From Dehalococcoidia bacterium (GTDB lineage Bacteria > Chloroflexota > Dehalococcoidia > Lucifugimonadales > UBA3495): a stretch of DNA of 64,000 nt. A program made the translations under genes and the position numbers. This document shows positions 1-5,208 of this stretch, in pieces (the stretch's first letter is position 1; every line of letters begins with the position of its first letter). The stretch lies in the NCBI GenBank assembly GCA_034423575.1, contig DAOUIF010000084.1, positions 2,040-66,039 of the forward strand, in the 5' to 3' direction. Under the pieces are notes generated by a model. That model ran no database searches. It saw nothing but the letters and a program-made list of their open reading frames with translations, and was not told the DNA's origin.

Positions 1-795
1 GACGAGGCTCAGCGCAGAATCAATCAGGCAAGGCGCGGCAAAACTGATTCGGGGGACCGTGTACGCATCATTGGCTATGATGACATCCTCGAAGAAGACG
101 ATTACGAAGGTTTTCCCGAAGAGATGCTGACTATTCCTGGCAACGAGATTACGGAAATTGACGGGGAGGAGTGTTCATCTGGATTCCGGGCTTTCGTACA
201 TGCTCCATTCAAGGACGATGCTGAGGCGGAACGCAACGACACCAGCATCGCTTTACAGGTCACCCTGAAAGCTGAAGGTTCTTGTTGTCGCGCGTTGCTG
301 TTTGGAGACCTTAGTAACCCAACCGTGACCAGAATCTTCTCCATCAGCGACCAGCAAGACCTGGAGTGGAACGTATTGCTCGCCCCCCATCACTGTTCGA
401 AGACGGTCATGTACGTGCCTGACGATGACGGTAACGACGTACTCGACAGGGAGCTAATGTCCAAGATTGAGGACGCCGGACAAGAGTGCCGTTACATCGT
501 ATCAAGTTCCGAGCCAATCCCATCGCGCAACCAATCCGGCGACAACCCGCCCCACGCCCGGGCGAAGAACCGATACGAAGAGATAGTCGAAGAGGGTCAC
601 TTTGTTTGCACCCAGGAACATCCCTCGGAGGAGGCTCCTGAACCCATCGTCATACGAGTCACTGATAGCGGTTGCAATAAGGACTCGGCTGACGGATCGA
701 ATTCAATGGCCTCCGAGGGCGTCCCTGCCGCTTTACTCGGTGCCCGGGGCGACGATTCTCCCCCCACCACCGAAGTCGGTTTCGGAGCATCATGA
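1..795 (+). CDS. ComEC/Rec2-like metallo-beta-lactamase-fold hydrolase (MblB-like), 5' end outside window
   Basis: Frame +1 is open from base 1 (DEAQRRINQ...) to TGA at 793-795. It has C-terminal MBL motifs LLFGDL and LLAPHHCSK, an acidic low-complexity tail ending EVGFGAS, and an ATGA overlap with the next gene. Confidence 0.75.
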   Translation, partial: DEAQRRINQARRGKTDSGDRVRIIGYDDILEEDDYEGFPEEMLTIPGNEITEIDGEECSSGFRAFVHAPFKDDAEAERNDTSIALQVTLKAEGSCCRALLFGDLSNPTVTRIFSISDQQDLEWNVLLAPHHCSKTVMYVPDDDGNDVLDRELMSKIEDAGQECRYIVSSSEPIPSRNQSGDNPPHARAKNRYEEIVEEGHFVCTQEHPSEEAPEPIVIRVTDSGCNKDSADGSNSMASEGVPAALLGARGDDSPPTTEVGFGAS

Positions 796-3176
796 CAATT
801 ACGGCCGGACAGCAAAACGCGCTCCGTGACCTTGAATCGGTCGCCCGGGAAGGTGATGCCCTGGAGGTCATCAAGGTGGCGGAGCCTCGAGACGCAGGCG
901 ATTCACTGTTGGTGGAGATCGCTCTCTCTTTCAAGGGATTGCCCAAAACCTCGGACGGCATACCACTGAGGCAGAGGGAGAGATTCTTTGTCTTTGTCCC
1001 TGCTGACTACCCACTTCGCTATCCCCACGTATGGGTCCTCCACCAGCGATGGGCTGGTTGGCCCCACGTTCAATGGACTCGGCACCTCTGTCTTTACCAG
1101 GCGCCTGAGACAGAGTGGAACCCGGTCGACGGAATGTTCGGCTTCATTGAACGTCTGTATCTTTGGGTGAAACGGGCGGCTATCAACCAACTCGACCCGG
1201 TTGGCGCTCCGTTACATCCGCCTGTAGCATACGTTGAGAATTTCTCTACGCCCCTTGTCATACCGTACGTCAACGCGCCTGTGGTTGGGGATCAACCGTG
1301 GACAGGGTTCGCCAATATCACGGGTCAACCGGGCAACAGAATTGATGTAACGGGGTGGACCGGGTTGGAAGACGCCACGCCTGCCGGGTCCGTTGCTGCC
1401 GCTGTCCTTCTTCCCCAGGCAGCATCTTACGAATTTCCTAATAAAGTCAAAGACTTGCTGGACATCCTGGAGGGGCAGGGCGTCTCACGAAAGACATTAA
1501 TCAGAGTCCTTGGCCAGGCCGCAACGATTAACGGCAAGGACACCCAGTTGCTGGTGTTAATCGGCACACCTACCCGTGGAGTCCGTGATGCCGGCGTTTA
1601 CCAGCAAAACCTGGTGGCTTGGCTCTTGGAGCCTGTTATAGCTAACGGTCTGAGATTGGCGCTCGAACAGTTCTCGCCGCATCAAGGACTAAGGGAAATT
1701 GGTCTCGATTGTGAAAGGCTGGTCCTGGGATGGTCAGAGTTGGCCGACGTGAGTTGGTGCCGTTTGAGAGAAGCGCGCCCCGAAGTGACCATTCGCCGGG
1801 ATGATACATCGCCACTGGCGTGGTTCCGTAACAAGACTGTGGCCGTGTTGGGTTGTGGAGCAATCGGTGGTCATGTAGCGGAGGCCCTGACCCGTGCCGG
1901 CGTGGGGAAGTTGATCTTGTGGGATAAGAGCGTGGTGACTCCTGGCGTACTGGTGCGTCAACCGTTTGAAGATTCTGATATAGGCAAGAACAAGGCCACT
2001 GCGACGCGGGACCGGCTGCTCAGAATAATCCCTGGGTTGTCTGTCGAGGCCATCGGAAAGGACATTCTCGACACAACCGATTGGGCCGACGGTGTGGACA
2101 TGGTGATTAACGCCACCGCCTCTTGGCCGGTTGCCCAGCACTTGGAGATATGCCGGATGGCGGCTCCTCCGAAGGGAACCGTTATCGCTTCAATGGTGTT
2201 GGGCCACCATGCTCATCGTGCCTTGCTGTATGTCATAGGAGGAGATTACACGGGAGGAACTGCGGACTTGGCCCGTAAGACCAAAATCGAGGCACTGAGA
2301 TTAGGCCGATTGGCGCAATTCGAGGATGATTTCTGGCCGGACCGACCCCGGACTTCCTTTCAGCCCGAACCGGGATGCTCGGAACCTACTTTCATCGGTG
2401 CCCACGCGGAAGTAATGGGTCTGGTTGGAGCTATGGTCACCAAGCTGGCGCGCGAAGTGGCGCACGGTAACCCTGAAGTGGCGTCAAGCCACCTATTCAC
2501 GGCCGCCGGGGTGGAAGTCCCCAACCGGGAGAGAAGGGAGCACAGCTTTTTCTTCAAACCGGATATTTGCTTGGCGGAATCCGTTCACGACTATCAAATC
2601 AAGATTGCTCCAGAAGCTTTCGACGACCTCCAGACGTGGATCCTTAGGTCCCAAGAACGGCATGGCCGTTCTGCTGAGACCGGAGGGCACATCTTCGGTG
2701 AGCGCAACGATGCGGCAAAAATTATCTGGGTGACGGAAGTTACTGGTCCCCCGCCTGGCAGCAAGGCCAGCCCCACTGAGTTTGTGTGTGGTTTCAAAGG
2801 AGTCGGCACAGCGTCCAAGGCGAAGTCCCGGTCCACAAGAGGGTCGGTAAAGTTCGTGGGTATGTGGCACACTCACCCCAATGGTTCCCCAAAACCAAGC
2901 GACACCGACTACAATGCAATGCGCGACATAGTCTCTGATCGTGCCGTCCCCTGTCCTCGCAGCTTGCTGCTGATCATTGGGACCGCGCCTCGAGATGCCT
3001 TCAATGTCACTGCATCGCTCTTTTCCCGTGGGGAATTGCCGGACTACAACGAACTCCTTCGACAGGTGAAACCTGTAACCCTCCCATTACCTGGGAAGGC
3101 GGAACCGTCTCAGGAGGAGACTGTGGTACCCGGCGGCGAGGATTTCGACGAAGCGGAAGGGACACTGACAGAATAA
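792..3176 (+). CDS. Prokaryotic E2 (UBC-like) - E1 (ThiF) - JAB metallopeptidase fusion (Cap2-Cap3-like)
   Basis: E2 motif PHVQWTRHLCLY (C100). ThiF nucleotide-binding motif VAVLGCGAIG...LWDKSVV...LVRQ and EPGCSEPTF (C529). JAB motifs ETGG and VGMWHTHPNGSPKPSDTD (H693, H695). Confidence 0.9.
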   Translation: MTITAGQQNALRDLESVAREGDALEVIKVAEPRDAGDSLLVEIALSFKGLPKTSDGIPLRQRERFFVFVPADYPLRYPHVWVLHQRWAGWPHVQWTRHLCLYQAPETEWNPVDGMFGFIERLYLWVKRAAINQLDPVGAPLHPPVAYVENFSTPLVIPYVNAPVVGDQPWTGFANITGQPGNRIDVTGWTGLEDATPAGSVAAAVLLPQAASYEFPNKVKDLLDILEGQGVSRKTLIRVLGQAATINGKDTQLLVLIGTPTRGVRDAGVYQQNLVAWLLEPVIANGLRLALEQFSPHQGLREIGLDCERLVLGWSELADVSWCRLREARPEVTIRRDDTSPLAWFRNKTVAVLGCGAIGGHVAEALTRAGVGKLILWDKSVVTPGVLVRQPFEDSDIGKNKATATRDRLLRIIPGLSVEAIGKDILDTTDWADGVDMVINATASWPVAQHLEICRMAAPPKGTVIASMVLGHHAHRALLYVIGGDYTGGTADLARKTKIEALRLGRLAQFEDDFWPDRPRTSFQPEPGCSEPTFIGAHAEVMGLVGAMVTKLAREVAHGNPEVASSHLFTAAGVEVPNRERREHSFFFKPDICLAESVHDYQIKIAPEAFDDLQTWILRSQERHGRSAETGGHIFGERNDAAKIIWVTEVTGPPPGSKASPTEFVCGFKGVGTASKAKSRSTRGSVKFVGMWHTHPNGSPKPSDTDYNAMRDIVSDRAVPCPRSLLLIIGTAPRDAFNVTASLFSRGELPDYNELLRQVKPVTLPLPGKAEPSQEETVVPGGEDFDEAEGTLTE

Positions 3177-4065: not shown

Positions 4066-5208
4066 TTGAAGGAACAATCCAGCAAGTGGAATACGGTAAA
4101 GATGGATACCAATGACGATGGCAGCACGGGTCTCGCTCTGTCCGGTGGAGGATTTCGCGCCACCTTGTTCCACTTGGGAGCCTTATGGCGTCTCAACGAG
4201 ATGGCAATGCTGTCCGAGATTGGACAGTTCTCATCTGTTTCAGGGGGTTCCATACTGGCCGGCCTCTTGGCCGTTCGATGGCCAAACCTTATCTTCAACG
4301 GGAGCATAGCCACCAATTTCCAAGACGAAATCGTCAGACCGATATGGGAATTCTGCAGCCGGGACATCGAACGAGCGGCCGTATTGTTCGGAATAATTTC
4401 CGGGACGTGGAAACTGGAACACAGCTACCAGAAACACTTGGTCGGTACGGCAGGACTGCAAGACATCCCGGACCACCCGGAGTTTATTTTCAACGCGGCG
4501 CACATCGAAACAGGACGCAACTTCATCCTGTCGAAGCGAAAGCTTCATACCTGGCGCATAGGCGACGTCAATTTCCCAAAACTGCCGCTCGCGAAGGCAA
4601 TGGCAGCGTCATCGGCGTTCCCGCCTGCGTTTCCACCGGTGATTCTAAAGCTAGAACCCAGTTCATTCACAAAATCCGAAAACGCCGACCTGTTCCACAG
4701 GGATGATCTGAAGAAGAAAATCTCGCTCACTGACGGCGGCGCCTACGACAACCTTGGGATTCACGCAATCCAGAAATGCCAGACGATACTGGTTTCCGAC
4801 GGCAGCGGTCCATTGAAAGCAACACATGGTAAGTGGTACGCAAGACAGTTCAATCATCGGATAATGAGGCCCATGGAGACGGCCCTGGAACAGACCAGAG
4901 CGATTAGAAGACAAGCTATCATAAGCCGGTTCCTGAAGAAGGAGAAAAATGGGGCGCTCTGGATGGCCGCGACACCACTAACCCGGTACACCATCCCAAT
5001 TCCTTTCTCTGTTAGCCCCGGATGGAACGAGTACCTCTCTATGGTCAGGACGCGGCTGAATCCATTCACCGACGCAGAAAAATCCATGATGGTCAACTGG
5101 GGCTATCTGCTGTGTGACCTCTCGGTGAGAGAGCATTACCGGACGAATGAACCACCGCCAACTGAACTCCCGTTCCCCGAATTCCACTTCAGCAATCCAC
5201 CTTCCTGA
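4066..5208 (+). CDS. Patatin-like phospholipase
   Basis: GLALSGGGFRA glycine loop, SSVSGGS nucleophile elbow, ASSAFP and TDGGAYDNLG catalytic Asp motif. Abuts the previous stop codon. Confidence 0.9.
   Translation: MKEQSSKWNTVKMDTNDDGSTGLALSGGGFRATLFHLGALWRLNEMAMLSEIGQFSSVSGGSILAGLLAVRWPNLIFNGSIATNFQDEIVRPIWEFCSRDIERAAVLFGIISGTWKLEHSYQKHLVGTAGLQDIPDHPEFIFNAAHIETGRNFILSKRKLHTWRIGDVNFPKLPLAKAMAASSAFPPAFPPVILKLEPSSFTKSENADLFHRDDLKKKISLTDGGAYDNLGIHAIQKCQTILVSDGSGPLKATHGKWYARQFNHRIMRPMETALEQTRAIRRQAIISRFLKKEKNGALWMAATPLTRYTIPIPFSVSPGWNEYLSMVRTRLNPFTDAEKSMMVNWGYLLCDLSVREHYRTNEPPPTELPFPEFHFSNPPS

What the first reader, a model, noticed from the sequence alone, without database searches (positions are those of the whole stretch)
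1..5208. Four-gene ubiquitin-like conjugation operon (MBL, E2-E1-JAB, MBL, patatin) with no cyclase or ubiquitin in view
Seen: four co-oriented genes, two junctions overlapping or abutting, with intact catalytic motifs. Established: E2-E1 (Cap2) and JAB (Cap3) conjugate and deconjugate the CD-NTase in type II CBASS, and an MBL plus Cap2-Cap3 fusion pair is the '6A-MBL' anti-phage arrangement. Inference: this is an extended variant that adds a second ComEC-type nuclease and a CapV-like phospholipase, which could attack nucleic acid and membrane under protein-conjugation control. A CD-NTase or Ubl gene could lie left of base 1.
Basis: partly seen in the sequence, partly recalled or inferred. Interest (0 to 1): 0.85.

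Follow-up and report, generated by a model that had tools for sequence, protein, structure and literature searches.

The report
6A-MBL defence operon with patatin
The four genes are real and form a member of the known "6A-MBL" anti-phage family (a metallo-hydrolase plus a fused E2-E1-JAB conjugation enzyme), extended by a second metallo-hydrolase and a patatin phospholipase. No cyclase or ubiquitin gene is needed, because the first hydrolase itself carries a ubiquitin-like C-terminal tail.

Summary
Window 1-5208 holds four co-oriented genes: MBL1 (5'-cut), E2-E1-JAB, MBL2 and patatin, all with intact catalytic motifs. The source contig shows only the rest of MBL1, an HNH gene and a response regulator upstream, with no CD-NTase and no Ubl gene.

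Genes 1-2 pass NCBIfam's equivalog cut-offs for the anti-phage 6A-MBL system. Gene 3 is a ComEC-like MBL of PADLOC candidate family PDC-M48B. Gene 4 is a patatin that is not specifically CapV-like.

New findings:
- Among the 80 closest species-level relatives of the E2-E1-JAB protein, 69 carry a patatin: fused in 45, directly downstream in 18, elsewhere in the locus in 6. A patatin is the norm for this clade.
- The window's patatin subfamily follows the core directly, without MBL2, in L116, L120 and L122. It also forms stand-alone MBL2+patatin pairs in at least 7 genomes.
- 75 of 78 distinct MBL1 C-termini carry x[GTD][FYH]G (mostly VGFG) followed by 0-4 residues. This looks like a Ubl precursor tail, and it co-varies with the E1 clade.

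Best reading: MBL1 is trimmed by JAB and conjugated by E1/E2, and this controls a patatin effector. MBL2 is an accessory hydrolase. The main rival is two adjacent independent systems (about 0.25). Verdict: a new variant of a known kind.

The parts
1..795 (+). MBL1: 3' part (264 of 386 codons) of the 6A-MBL system MBL-fold protein. The gene starts 366 bp left of base 1.
   Evidence: Translation. The full gene is L001:1447-2607. NCBIfam NF058524 scores 303.7 bits against a cut-off of 220 on the full length, and 191.9 on the window fragment. Conserved metal-ligand residues H79, D81, D83, H84, H189, D225, H252 and H253 in 82 homologues.
775..792 (+). MBL1 C-terminal tail motif V-G-F-G (775-786) followed by two trailing residues A-S (787-792). 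Predicted site of JAB trimming and E1 adenylation.
   Evidence: 75 of 78 distinct MBL1 tails have x[GTD][FYH]G followed by 0-4 residues, and 56 of them are VGFG. The TYG/DYG variants fall in a single Cap2_3 clade.
792..3176 (+). E2-E1-JAB triple-module protein (6A-MBL cap2_3), 794 aa. E2 spans about 855-1232 (Cys100 at 1089-1091). The ThiF/E1 domain spans about 1827-2216 (Cys529 at 2376-2378). JAB spans about 2643-2987 (H693 and H695 at 2868-2876).
   Evidence: Pfam Prok-E2_A 9e-18, ThiF 2.6e-20, Prok-JAB 3e-10. NCBIfam NF058523 scores 347.1 against a cut-off of 320. PADLOC E1-E2 4.8e-77 and JAB 5e-28. Invariant C100, C529, E629, H693, H695, S703 and D706.
3214..4065 (+). MBL2: 283-aa ComEC-like metallo-beta-lactamase-fold hydrolase of the PDC-M48B family. 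The HPHLDH motif is at 3385-3402.
   Evidence: PADLOC PDC-M48B 8.2e-90. Pfam Lactamase_B. The profile matches ComEC MBL domains in the PDB at 2e-12. The AF2 model has pLDDT 87, and its top folds are 9ic4 (ComEC MBL domain) and 1wra (Pce/CbpE). 1183 homologues.
4066..5208 (+). Patatin-like phospholipase (380 aa from TTG 4066, or 368 aa from ATG 4102). Nucleophile Ser at 4240-4242, catalytic Asp at 4732-4734. C-terminal family motif LPFPEFHFS.
   Evidence: Pfam Patatin 1.8e-16. Invariant GGGFR, VSGGS and DGGxYDNLG. The AF2 model has pLDDT 72 and matches patatin, CapV, CapE and PlpD folds.
5412..5457 (+). Two terminator-like hairpins in the convergent intergenic region after the patatin gene.
   Evidence: L001 7224-7269, which is the window coordinate plus 1812. 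None was found between the four genes.

Best explanation
Window 1-5208 is a 6A-MBL-family anti-phage operon in an extended form: MBL1, E2-E1-JAB, MBL2, patatin.

Shown:
- Family membership of genes 1-2.
- No cyclase or Ubl gene.
- Patatin is the regular third component of this E2-E1-JAB clade. It is fused, adjacent, or, as here, preceded by MBL2.
- MBL1 proteins end in a conserved ...ARG..PP...VGFG motif followed by 0-4 variable residues.

Inferred mechanism, by analogy with Cap2/Cap3 acting on the C-terminal Gly of CD-NTase in type II CBASS:
1. The JAB domain trims the residues after the Gly (A-S here).
2. The E1 domain adenylates that Gly and takes MBL1 onto Cys529. MBL1 then passes to E2 Cys100 and on to a lysine of a target.
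3. MBL1 is thus both the 'ubiquitin' and an enzyme. Its conjugation state, reversed by JAB, sets the system's activity on infection.
4. The patatin is the membrane-degrading abortive-infection effector. It occupies the slot that is physically fused to E2-E1-JAB in 45 of 80 relatives.
5. MBL2 is an accessory ComEC-like phosphodiesterase or nuclease. It travels with membrane effectors (patatin or roughly 235-aa predicted membrane proteins) and was captured together with its patatin partner.
For: - Genes 1-2 exceed the NCBIfam 6A-MBL equivalog cut-offs.
- Upstream there is only HNH and a response regulator.
- About half of the top 120 homologues of gene 2 are roughly 1160-aa E2-E1-JAB-patatin fusions.
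- In 80 species-level loci, patatin is fused in 45, directly downstream in 18, behind MBL2 in 2, 1.1 kb downstream in 1 and divergent in 3. One locus has a fused metallophosphatase instead.
- The window clade is nested inside this patatin-bearing radiation.
- The window's patatin subfamily follows the core directly in L116 with an 11-bp overlap. It is present in 5 of 5 loci of a second, deeply divergent core clade, directly adjacent in L120 and L122. A distant relative follows the core in Photobacterium.
- The four-gene order recurs in L004, L005, L114 and L119.
- PDC-M48B-like MBLs sit next to 6A cores in other gene orders: L041 with a 17-bp gap, L022, L079, L036 and L063.
- MBL1 tail motif: 75 of 78 tails, co-varying with the Cap2_3 clade.
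- Gaps between genes are an overlap, 37 bp and abutting, and there is no internal terminator.
- Cap2 forms a thioester with the C-terminal Gly of cGAS, and Cap3 cleaves at that C-terminus (PMC10097602).
- Defence context: a low-GC island with restriction-like genes; BREX next to L032; CapH/CapP-like regulators in 12-14 of 80 loci.
Against: - MBL2+patatin pairs of the window type stand alone, with no core within 8 kb, in at least 7 Dehalococcoidia genomes (L008, L011-L014, L016, L017).
- MBL2 relatives also pair with unrelated predicted membrane proteins.
- The core exists without any patatin or MBL2 in 8 of 80 loci. The 6A arrangement was first described as two genes (PMC1779556).
- The window's patatin is a different subfamily from the fused one, with only about 23-29% identity.
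- Patatin and MBL2 identities are incongruent with the core. L005 has MBL2 at 74% but patatin at 49%, while stand-alone L016 has patatin at 68%.
- An IS sits between Cap2_3 and MBL2 in L115.
- No conjugation, nuclease or lipase activity, and no phage phenotype, has been measured for this locus.
- The experimental 6A-MBL paper (van den Berg 2024) could not be read.
Confidence: 0.6

Rival explanations
1. Two independent defence systems lie side by side in a defence island. One is a minimal two-gene 6A-MBL (genes 1-2). The other is a self-contained two-gene MBL2+patatin module, a PDC-M48-like pair in which patatin replaces a membrane-protein partner. They are co-transcribed only by accident of insertion.
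For: - Stand-alone MBL2+patatin pairs occur in at least 7 genomes.
- MBL2 relatives pair with other partners.
- Cores without patatin exist.
- The patatin subfamily differs from the fused one.
- Divergence of patatin and MBL2 is incongruent with the core.
- An IS insertion between the two halves is tolerated in L115.
- The region is a low-GC island with other defence-like genes.
Against: - The slot after Cap2_3 holds a patatin in 63 of 80 relatives, fused or directly adjacent.
- The same patatin subfamily follows the core directly, without MBL2, in L116, L120 and L122.
- The association recurs in two deeply divergent core clades and, in other gene orders, in other phyla.
- Both families are rare, with 288 Cap2_3 relatives and 27 MBL2 relatives confirmed in a collection of 185,579 species genomes. 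Even so, 6 of 27 MBL2 loci have a core within 8 kb.
Confidence: 0.25
2. A decayed or split type II CBASS: Cap2, Cap3 and a CapV-like effector whose CD-NTase is missing or encoded elsewhere.
For: PADLOC's CBASS E1-E2 and JAB models hit gene 2. Patatin effectors are typical of CBASS. A separate Cap2-like gene lies upstream of the core in L005.
Against: - No CD-NTase lies upstream in the source contig.
- No cyclase-like family recurs around 80 related cores.
- Gene 2 and MBL1 pass the 6A-MBL equivalog cut-offs.
- The patatin has no hit to any PADLOC or NCBIfam model, CapV included.
- The MBL1 tail supplies a substrate.
Confidence: 0.03
3. A non-defence role, for example a mobile-element maintenance or addiction module, or lipid/envelope remodelling controlled by protein conjugation.
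For: Integrases and transposases flank many loci. Most distant relatives of this patatin are solitary genes of unknown role. The loci occur on plasmids.
Against: - The family is annotated as anti-phage, and reviews report it as experimentally confirmed in P. aeruginosa (NCBIfam names; PMC13276650; bioRxiv 10.1101/2025.09.30.679545).
- The loci sit in defence-island contexts next to BREX and restriction-modification genes.
- CapH/CapP-like regulators accompany 12-14 of 80 loci.
Confidence: 0.07

Closest known systems
6A-MBL anti-phage system (row 6a of Iyer, Burroughs & Aravind 2006, PMC1779556; reported as validated in P. aeruginosa by van den Berg et al. 2024, cited in PMC13276650; NCBIfam NF058523/NF058524)
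   Same: An E2-E1-JAB triple-module protein directly downstream of, and overlapping, a specialised MBL-fold protein. There is no cyclase and no Ubl gene. Both proteins exceed the NCBIfam equivalog cut-offs.
   Different: Two further co-oriented genes follow: a ComEC-like MBL and a patatin. The NCBIfam cap2_3 model is 665 positions long and has no patatin part. The accessible literature describes a two-gene operon and does not mention patatin.
Type II CBASS (CD-NTase + Cap2 E1/E2 + Cap3 JAB + effector such as the patatin CapV)
   Same: Homologous E2, E1 and JAB modules. A patatin-fold effector. A partner enzyme whose conserved C-terminal Gly plausibly enters the E1 site, as shown for cGAS (PMC10097602).
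   Different: There is no CD-NTase, so no cyclic-nucleotide signal. E2-E1 and JAB are one polypeptide. The presumed conjugated enzyme is an MBL hydrolase. The patatin is not of the CapV or CapE families at sequence level. In relatives it is covalently fused to the conjugation enzyme.
PADLOC candidate system PDC-M48 (component B)
   Same: MBL2 matches PDC-M48B at 8.2e-90 over its whole length. The family typically sits next to a small second gene.
   Different: The partner here is a patatin rather than the roughly 235-aa predicted membrane proteins seen elsewhere. No PDC-M48A match was found for any partner. Here the pair is embedded in a 6A-MBL operon.
Bil and Bub bacterial ubiquitination-like systems
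   Same: Bacterial E1/E2 plus a deconjugating peptidase, in a defence or defence-island context (PMC11601596).
   Different: Those systems encode a separate Ubl protein. Here no Ubl gene exists, and the tail of an enzyme appears to take that role.

Membership tests
6A-MBL anti-phage system | A single polypeptide with E2-like, E1-like (ThiF) and JAB domains in that order | tested here: met
   Pfam Prok-E2_A, ThiF and Prok-JAB at residues 22-147, 346-475 and 618-732. NF058523 scores 347.1 bits against a cut-off of 320.
6A-MBL anti-phage system | An adjacent specialised metallo-beta-lactamase-fold protein | tested here: met
   The full-length upstream gene (L001:1447-2604) scores 303.7 bits on NF058524 against a cut-off of 220. 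Its stop overlaps the start of gene 2.
6A-MBL anti-phage system | No CD-NTase and no separate Ubl gene in the operon | tested here: met
   The upstream genes are an HNH endonuclease and an OmpR-type regulator. No further recurrent family was found in 80 related loci apart from regulators and integrases.
6A-MBL anti-phage system | Protection against phage that depends on the catalytic residues | not testable with these tools
   Needs expression and plaque assays. The primary paper is not held.
Type II CBASS | A CD-NTase (cGAS/DncV-like cyclase) gene in the operon | tested here: not met
   None in the source contig upstream or in the window neighbours. None recurs in related loci.
Type II CBASS | A cyclic-nucleotide-activated effector of a CBASS effector family (e.g. 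CapV) | tested here: not met
   The patatin has no PADLOC hit at E<=1 and no NCBIfam hit at E<=0.01. It resembles CapV and CapE only at fold level, with TM 0.35-0.40. Ligand activation itself is not testable here.
PDC-M48 (PADLOC candidate) | Component B (MBL-fold protein) | tested here: met
   PDLC04675 at 8.2e-90, covering residues 4-268 of 283.
PDC-M48 (PADLOC candidate) | Component A next to B | tested here: inconclusive
   Neither the patatin nor the roughly 235-256-aa partners of MBL2 relatives hit any PDC-M48A model. The system definition itself was not available.
Patatin-like phospholipase superfamily | Oxyanion GGGxR, nucleophile GxSxG-type motif and catalytic DG[GA] | tested here: met
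   GGGFR, VSGGS and DGG are invariant in 17 homologues. Pfam Patatin scores 61.3 bits against a cut-off of 27.7.
Bil/Bub ubiquitination-like systems | A separate Ubl (beta-grasp) gene | tested here: not met
   No such gene is in the operon or upstream.

The most novel reading that the evidence does not exclude
6A-MBL systems are in general three-part machines. In them an enzyme (MBL1) doubles as the ubiquitin-like modifier: its precursor tail ...VGFG-xx is trimmed by JAB, activated by E1 and passed to E2. This conjugation directly switches on a patatin phospholipase with no nucleotide second messenger. The window shows a further layer, in which the patatin is a hub shared by two alternative controllers: the conjugation core and a ComEC-like MBL that elsewhere commands membrane effectors on its own. 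If so, this would be a signal-free, conjugation-gated abortive-infection pathway, and it would give the unknown mechanism of 6A-MBL a concrete and testable form.
Probability: 0.35. Interest if true: 0.8.

Novelty: new variant of a known kind. Interest (0 to 1): 0.62.

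Why it matters
6A-MBL is reported as a validated anti-phage system, but I found no published mechanism for it in the papers I could reach.

This locus and its relatives offer three concrete handles:
- A likely conjugation substrate: the VGFG-xx tail of MBL1, which co-varies with the E1 clade.
- A likely effector: a patatin that is physically fused to the conjugation enzyme in most close relatives.
- Natural split, fused and swapped variants (patatin, metallophosphatase, MBL2+patatin) that can be compared side by side.

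The locus would extend the Cap2/Cap3 principle, in which an enzyme uses its own C-terminus as a ubiquitin-like handle, from cyclases to hydrolases. It would also show how a phospholipase can be controlled without a cyclic-nucleotide signal.

Public records annotate these three-gene operons only generically, for example on the Rhodococcus plasmid NZ_CP086071.1. Annotation pipelines could therefore be improved.

Tried and rejected
- Looked for a CD-NTase or Ubl gene left of base 1. The source contig was recovered and shows only the rest of MBL1, an HNH gene and a regulator. An 81-aa ORF in the HNH-MBL1 spacer is low-complexity and has no Ubl features.
- Tested the 'CapV-like' label. There are no PADLOC or NCBIfam hits for the patatin, even at E<=1, and no PDB sequence hit.
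- Tried to identify PDC-M48A among the MBL2 partners. No hit was found, and a literature search for PDC-M48 returned nothing.
- Searched the literature for patatin together with 6A-MBL or E2-E1-JAB and found nothing relevant. The primary 6A-MBL paper and Chambers 2024 are not held, so prior description of the patatin forms cannot be excluded.
- The sigma-70 promoter scan was uninformative: 1 site found against 4.3 expected, and the organism is probably a Dehalococcoidia.
- No tRNA gene was found as an island marker.
It returned mostly distant solitary patatins, so it gives no unbiased co-occurrence rate.
- The patatin AF2 model is only moderate (pLDDT 72), so its fold matches are generic.
- I considered that the window's patatin is the orthologue of the fused patatin. 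This is rejected: identity is 23-29% and the C-terminal motifs differ.
- I could not test whether genomes with stand-alone MBL2+patatin pairs carry a core elsewhere.

Full report
**1. What is in the sequence**

Window 1-5208 carries four genes on the + strand.
- Gene 1 is open from base 1 to the stop at 793-795.
- Gene 2 (792-3176, 794 aa) starts with an ATG that overlaps that stop.
- Gene 3 (3214-4065, 283 aa) starts at a TTG 37 bp later. It is preceded by a G-run, and the N-terminus MTLRF is shared by all homologues.
- Gene 4 (4066-5208) abuts the stop of gene 3. An ATG at 4102 is the alternative start.

Pfam finds Prok-E2_A, ThiF and Prok-JAB in gene 2, Lactamase_B in gene 3 and Patatin in gene 4.

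- C100, C529, H693 and H695 are invariant in 21 homologues of gene 2.
- HPHLDH is conserved in 16 MBL2 homologues.
- GGGFR, VSGGS and DGG are invariant in 17 patatin homologues.

No terminator-like hairpin lies between the genes. Two lie just after gene 4.

**2. What lies to the left of base 1**

An exact-protein look-up of gene 2 recovered the source contig (JGI Ga0131736_1000014) and two shorter copies. The window begins at position 1813 of locus L001. Upstream lie:
- the missing 122 codons of gene 1, which is 386 aa in full;
- a 240-bp spacer;
- a 188-aa HNH endonuclease gene;
- the end of an OmpR-type response regulator.

There is no CD-NTase and no Ubl gene. The closest genome relatives are Dehalococcoidia/SAR202 MAGs. 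The first roughly 16 kb of the window have a lower G+C content (54-58%) than the rest (60-65%). They also carry restriction-like genes and a C5 methylase. This region is therefore a defence island.

**3. Family assignment**

- The full-length gene 1 scores 303.7 bits on NCBIfam NF058524, 'anti-phage 6A-MBL system MBL-fold protein' (cut-off 220).
- Gene 2 scores 347.1 bits on NF058523, '6A-MBL system cap2_3 protein' (cut-off 320).
- '6A' is row 6a of Table 1 in Iyer et al. 2006: a triple-module E2-E1-JAB protein almost always next to an MBL (PMC1779556).
- Later papers list 6A-MBL among experimentally confirmed P. aeruginosa defences, including against jumbo phages (PMC13276650 and bioRxiv 10.1101/2025.09.30.679545). 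The primary paper is not held.
- Gene 3 matches PADLOC candidate component PDC-M48B at 8.2e-90. Its nearest solved relatives by sequence and by fold are ComEC MBL domains and the Pce/CbpE phosphorylcholine esterase.
- Gene 4 has no PADLOC or NCBIfam match at all. It is generically patatin-fold.

**4. Patatin is the regular third component of this clade**

About half of the 120 best homologues of gene 2 are roughly 1160-aa proteins with a C-terminal patatin domain.

A scan of one genome per species found 288 relatives, and I analysed the best 80. An MBL1 gene lies directly upstream in at least 72. The effector slot is filled as follows:

| State of the slot after E2-E1-JAB | Loci (of 80) |
|---|---|
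| Patatin fused to E2-E1-JAB | 45 |
| Patatin as a separate gene directly downstream | 18 |
| MBL2 then patatin (window arrangement) | 2 |
| Patatin 1.1 kb downstream | 1 |
| Patatin divergently upstream | 3 |
| Fused calcineurin-like phosphoesterase instead | 1 |
| No such gene, despite room on the contig | 8 |
| Contig ends | 2 |

No cyclase-like family recurs around these cores. The recurrent neighbours are HTH_3 plus Peptidase_M78 pairs (CapH/CapP-like regulators, 12-14 loci), integrases and LexA-like repressors.

A cultured example is Rhodococcus plasmid NZ_CP086071.1. It is annotated only as hypothetical protein, ThiF family adenylyltransferase and patatin-like phospholipase, with overlapping genes.

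**5. Is the window's patatin part of the system?**

The patatins fall into subfamilies.
- The fused or adjacent '6A-type' ends in ...RGEQLTRLL..YxPEL.
- The window type ends in ...LPFPEFxFS and is only 23-29% identical to the 6A-type.

The window type pairs with MBL2 in stand-alone two-gene modules in at least 7 Dehalococcoidia genomes (L008, L011-L014, L016, L017). This argues for autonomy.

Several observations argue the other way.
- In L116 (Cap2_3 58% identical to the window's), a window-type patatin (50% identical) follows the core with an 11-bp overlap and no MBL2.
- In a second, deeply divergent core clade (Cap2_3 about 21% identical to the window's over the 425 residues BLAST aligns), all 5 species-level loci carry a window-type patatin. 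It is directly after Cap2_3 in L120 and L122, 650 bp after in L118, behind MBL2 in L119, and divergent with MBL2 in L121.
- Photobacterium loci show yet another divergent core with an adjacent patatin of this broad family.
- In a neighbour-joining tree, the window clade holds fused (L031), 6A-type separate (L117), window-type separate (L116) and MBL2+window-type (L005, L114, L001, L004) forms. The clade is nested within the patatin-bearing radiation.

The slot after Cap2_3 is thus an effector slot that is filled by exchange. I take the patatin to be part of the system (about 0.75).

**6. Is MBL2 part of it?**

For:
- The four-gene order recurs in L004, L005, L114 and L119.
- PDC-M48B-like MBLs sit beside 6A cores in other arrangements and phyla:
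  - L041 (Syntrophorhabdus): MBL2-like, MBL1 and E2-E1-JAB::metallophosphatase, with a 17-bp gap.
  - L022 (Desulfobacterales): E2-E1-JAB::patatin followed by MBL2 after 65 bp.
  - L079, L036 and L063.
- 6 of 27 MBL2 loci have a core within 8 kb, although both families are rare.

Against:
- Elsewhere MBL2 pairs with roughly 235-aa proteins whose N-termini look like membrane helices (L023, L025, L027, L036, L020). It also pairs with patatin alone.
- Patatin and MBL2 divergence is not congruent with the core.
- L115 tolerates an IS between Cap2_3 and MBL2.

I read MBL2 as a separable module that accompanies membrane-active effectors and was captured with its patatin. Functional integration has a probability of about 0.55.

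Its substrate is open. ComEC-like nuclease is the leading guess. However, the Pce-like and NAPE-PLD-like fold matches, together with its membrane-related partners, keep a lipid or head-group phosphodiesterase role alive.

**7. Where is the 'ubiquitin'?**

Aligning the ends of MBL1 proteins from all loci shows a conserved tail...ARG-x(3-5)-PP-x(3-4)-VGFG, followed by 0-4 variable residues. This holds for 75 of 78 distinct tails, and 56 of them are VGFG. Six proteins end exactly at the Gly. The window protein ends ...EVGFG-AS.

The variant TYG/DYG tails all belong to one Cap2_3 clade, and the deep clade has ...PPRAG-xx(x). The tail therefore co-varies with the conjugation enzyme.

This is the signature of a Ubl precursor. 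It parallels type II CBASS, where Cap2 forms a thioester with the conserved C-terminal Gly or Ala of the CD-NTase and Cap3 cleaves at that C-terminus (PMC10097602). MBL2 and the patatin have no such tail.

I infer, but have not shown, that MBL1 is trimmed by JAB, adenylated by E1, passed to Cys529 and then Cys100, and ligated to a target lysine.

**8. Mechanism proposed**

- Shown: gene content, family membership, fusions, co-occurrence, the tail motif and intact catalytic motifs.
- Inferred: on infection, the balance between conjugation of MBL1 and JAB-mediated removal shifts. This activates MBL1 and, directly or through proximity, the patatin. In most relatives the patatin is in the same polypeptide as the ligase. 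The patatin degrades membrane phospholipid and aborts the infection. MBL2 adds a second hydrolytic activity or a second input.
- Unknown: the trigger and the conjugation target.

**9. Comparison and novelty**

The locus is a member of the 6A-MBL family, since all sequence-testable defining features are met. It works like type II CBASS in its conjugation module, but it is not CBASS because it has no cyclase.

It differs from the described two-gene 6A-MBL by the patatin and the second MBL. I found no paper that mentions patatin with 6A-MBL, but I could not read the primary experimental paper.

I therefore rate it a new variant of a known kind. The four-gene form is a minority architecture, seen in 2 of 80 species-level relatives plus a few metagenomic contigs. 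It belongs to a large class of patatin-bearing 6A-MBL systems that, as far as I could see, has not been described. I give 0.62, mainly for the mechanistic handles: the tail, the fusions and the effector swaps.

Noticed in passing
window 5449-5973 (-): A 174-aa protein, convergent with the operon, matches PADLOC mREase_II (type II methyl-directed restriction enzyme) at 3.5e-32. It has no Pfam or NCBIfam hit.
   Followed up: partly
window 6601-10007 (-): Two overlapping genes. One is a 732-aa protein with an N-terminal HATPase_c_3 (GHKL, similar to BbrUII/HgiDII-family restriction enzymes) and a C-terminal histidine-kinase-like HATPase_c. The other is a 403-aa protein with a weak receiver domain (weak PADLOC PDC-M60B hit). 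This may be another defence-like pair in the island.
   Followed up: partly
window 10916-14356 (+): A 639-aa C5 cytosine DNA methylase with a C-terminal endonuclease-III-type Fe-S motif, followed by a 474-aa pentapeptide-repeat protein. Metabolic genes (FAD/BBE oxidase, MmgE/PrpD) begin at about 17 kb.
   Followed up: partly
window 1-16000 versus the rest: G+C is 54-58% in the first roughly 16 kb and 60-65% afterwards, consistent with a horizontally acquired defence island. No tRNA gene is present anywhere in the window.
   Followed up: partly
L001:639-1205 (left of the window): A 188-aa stand-alone HNH endonuclease (IscB/Cas9-type HNH domain) lies 240 bp upstream of MBL1. It is conserved (77-79% identity) only in the closest relatives L004, L114 and L115, and is absent from L005, L116, L117 and L031. 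Whether it belongs to the cassette is unknown.
   Followed up: partly
L115:7429-8543: An IS (HTH plus DDE_3 transposase) is inserted between the E2-E1-JAB gene and MBL2 in a metagenomic contig that is otherwise collinear with the window.
   Followed up: no
L041:263-5791: Syntrophorhabdus locus with an MBL2-like gene, then MBL1, then E2-E1-JAB fused to a calcineurin-like metallophosphatase instead of a patatin. This is an effector-domain swap. Protein P0209 shows the same fusion.
   Followed up: partly
L034-L113, upstream of MBL1 on the opposite strand (e.g. L040:4577-4963, L084:4418-5353, L032:3728-4605): XRE-type HTH_3 plus Peptidase_M78 (ImmA/IrrE) gene pairs recur in 12-14 of 80 loci. They resemble the CapH/CapP regulators of CBASS. 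A LexA-like repressor occurs in 4 loci.
   Followed up: partly
L005:2479-4107 (also L046, L029); L117:9975-10445: A separate 543-aa Cap2-like E1-E2 protein (PADLOC E1-E2, 3e-211) lies just upstream of the 6A-MBL operon in the SAR202 contig. An E2-CBASS (PF26395) gene lies near L117. A second conjugation system may be present next door.
   Followed up: no
L023:5193-5909, L025:8874-9554, L027:7290-7997, L036:1781-2542, L020:3948-4667: Outside Dehalococcoidia, MBL2 (PDC-M48B) relatives are paired with roughly 226-253-aa proteins that have hydrophobic, membrane-helix-like N-terminal regions and no Pfam or PADLOC hit. L025 and L020 also carry a second, divergent MBL2 paralogue in tandem.
   Followed up: partly
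L185:2580-7170 and L200:2563-7197 (Photobacterium): A divergent MBL1 plus E2-E1-JAB core with a directly adjacent patatin distantly related to the window's. This is a cultured-organism example of the three-gene form.
   Followed up: no
L032:1-15480 (Acidobacteria): MBL1 plus the E2-E1-JAB::patatin fusion sits between BREX genes (PglZ, BrxL) and a Tn7-like element (TnsA-like, TniB, TniQ). An uncharacterised 232-aa gene lies directly downstream.
   Followed up: no
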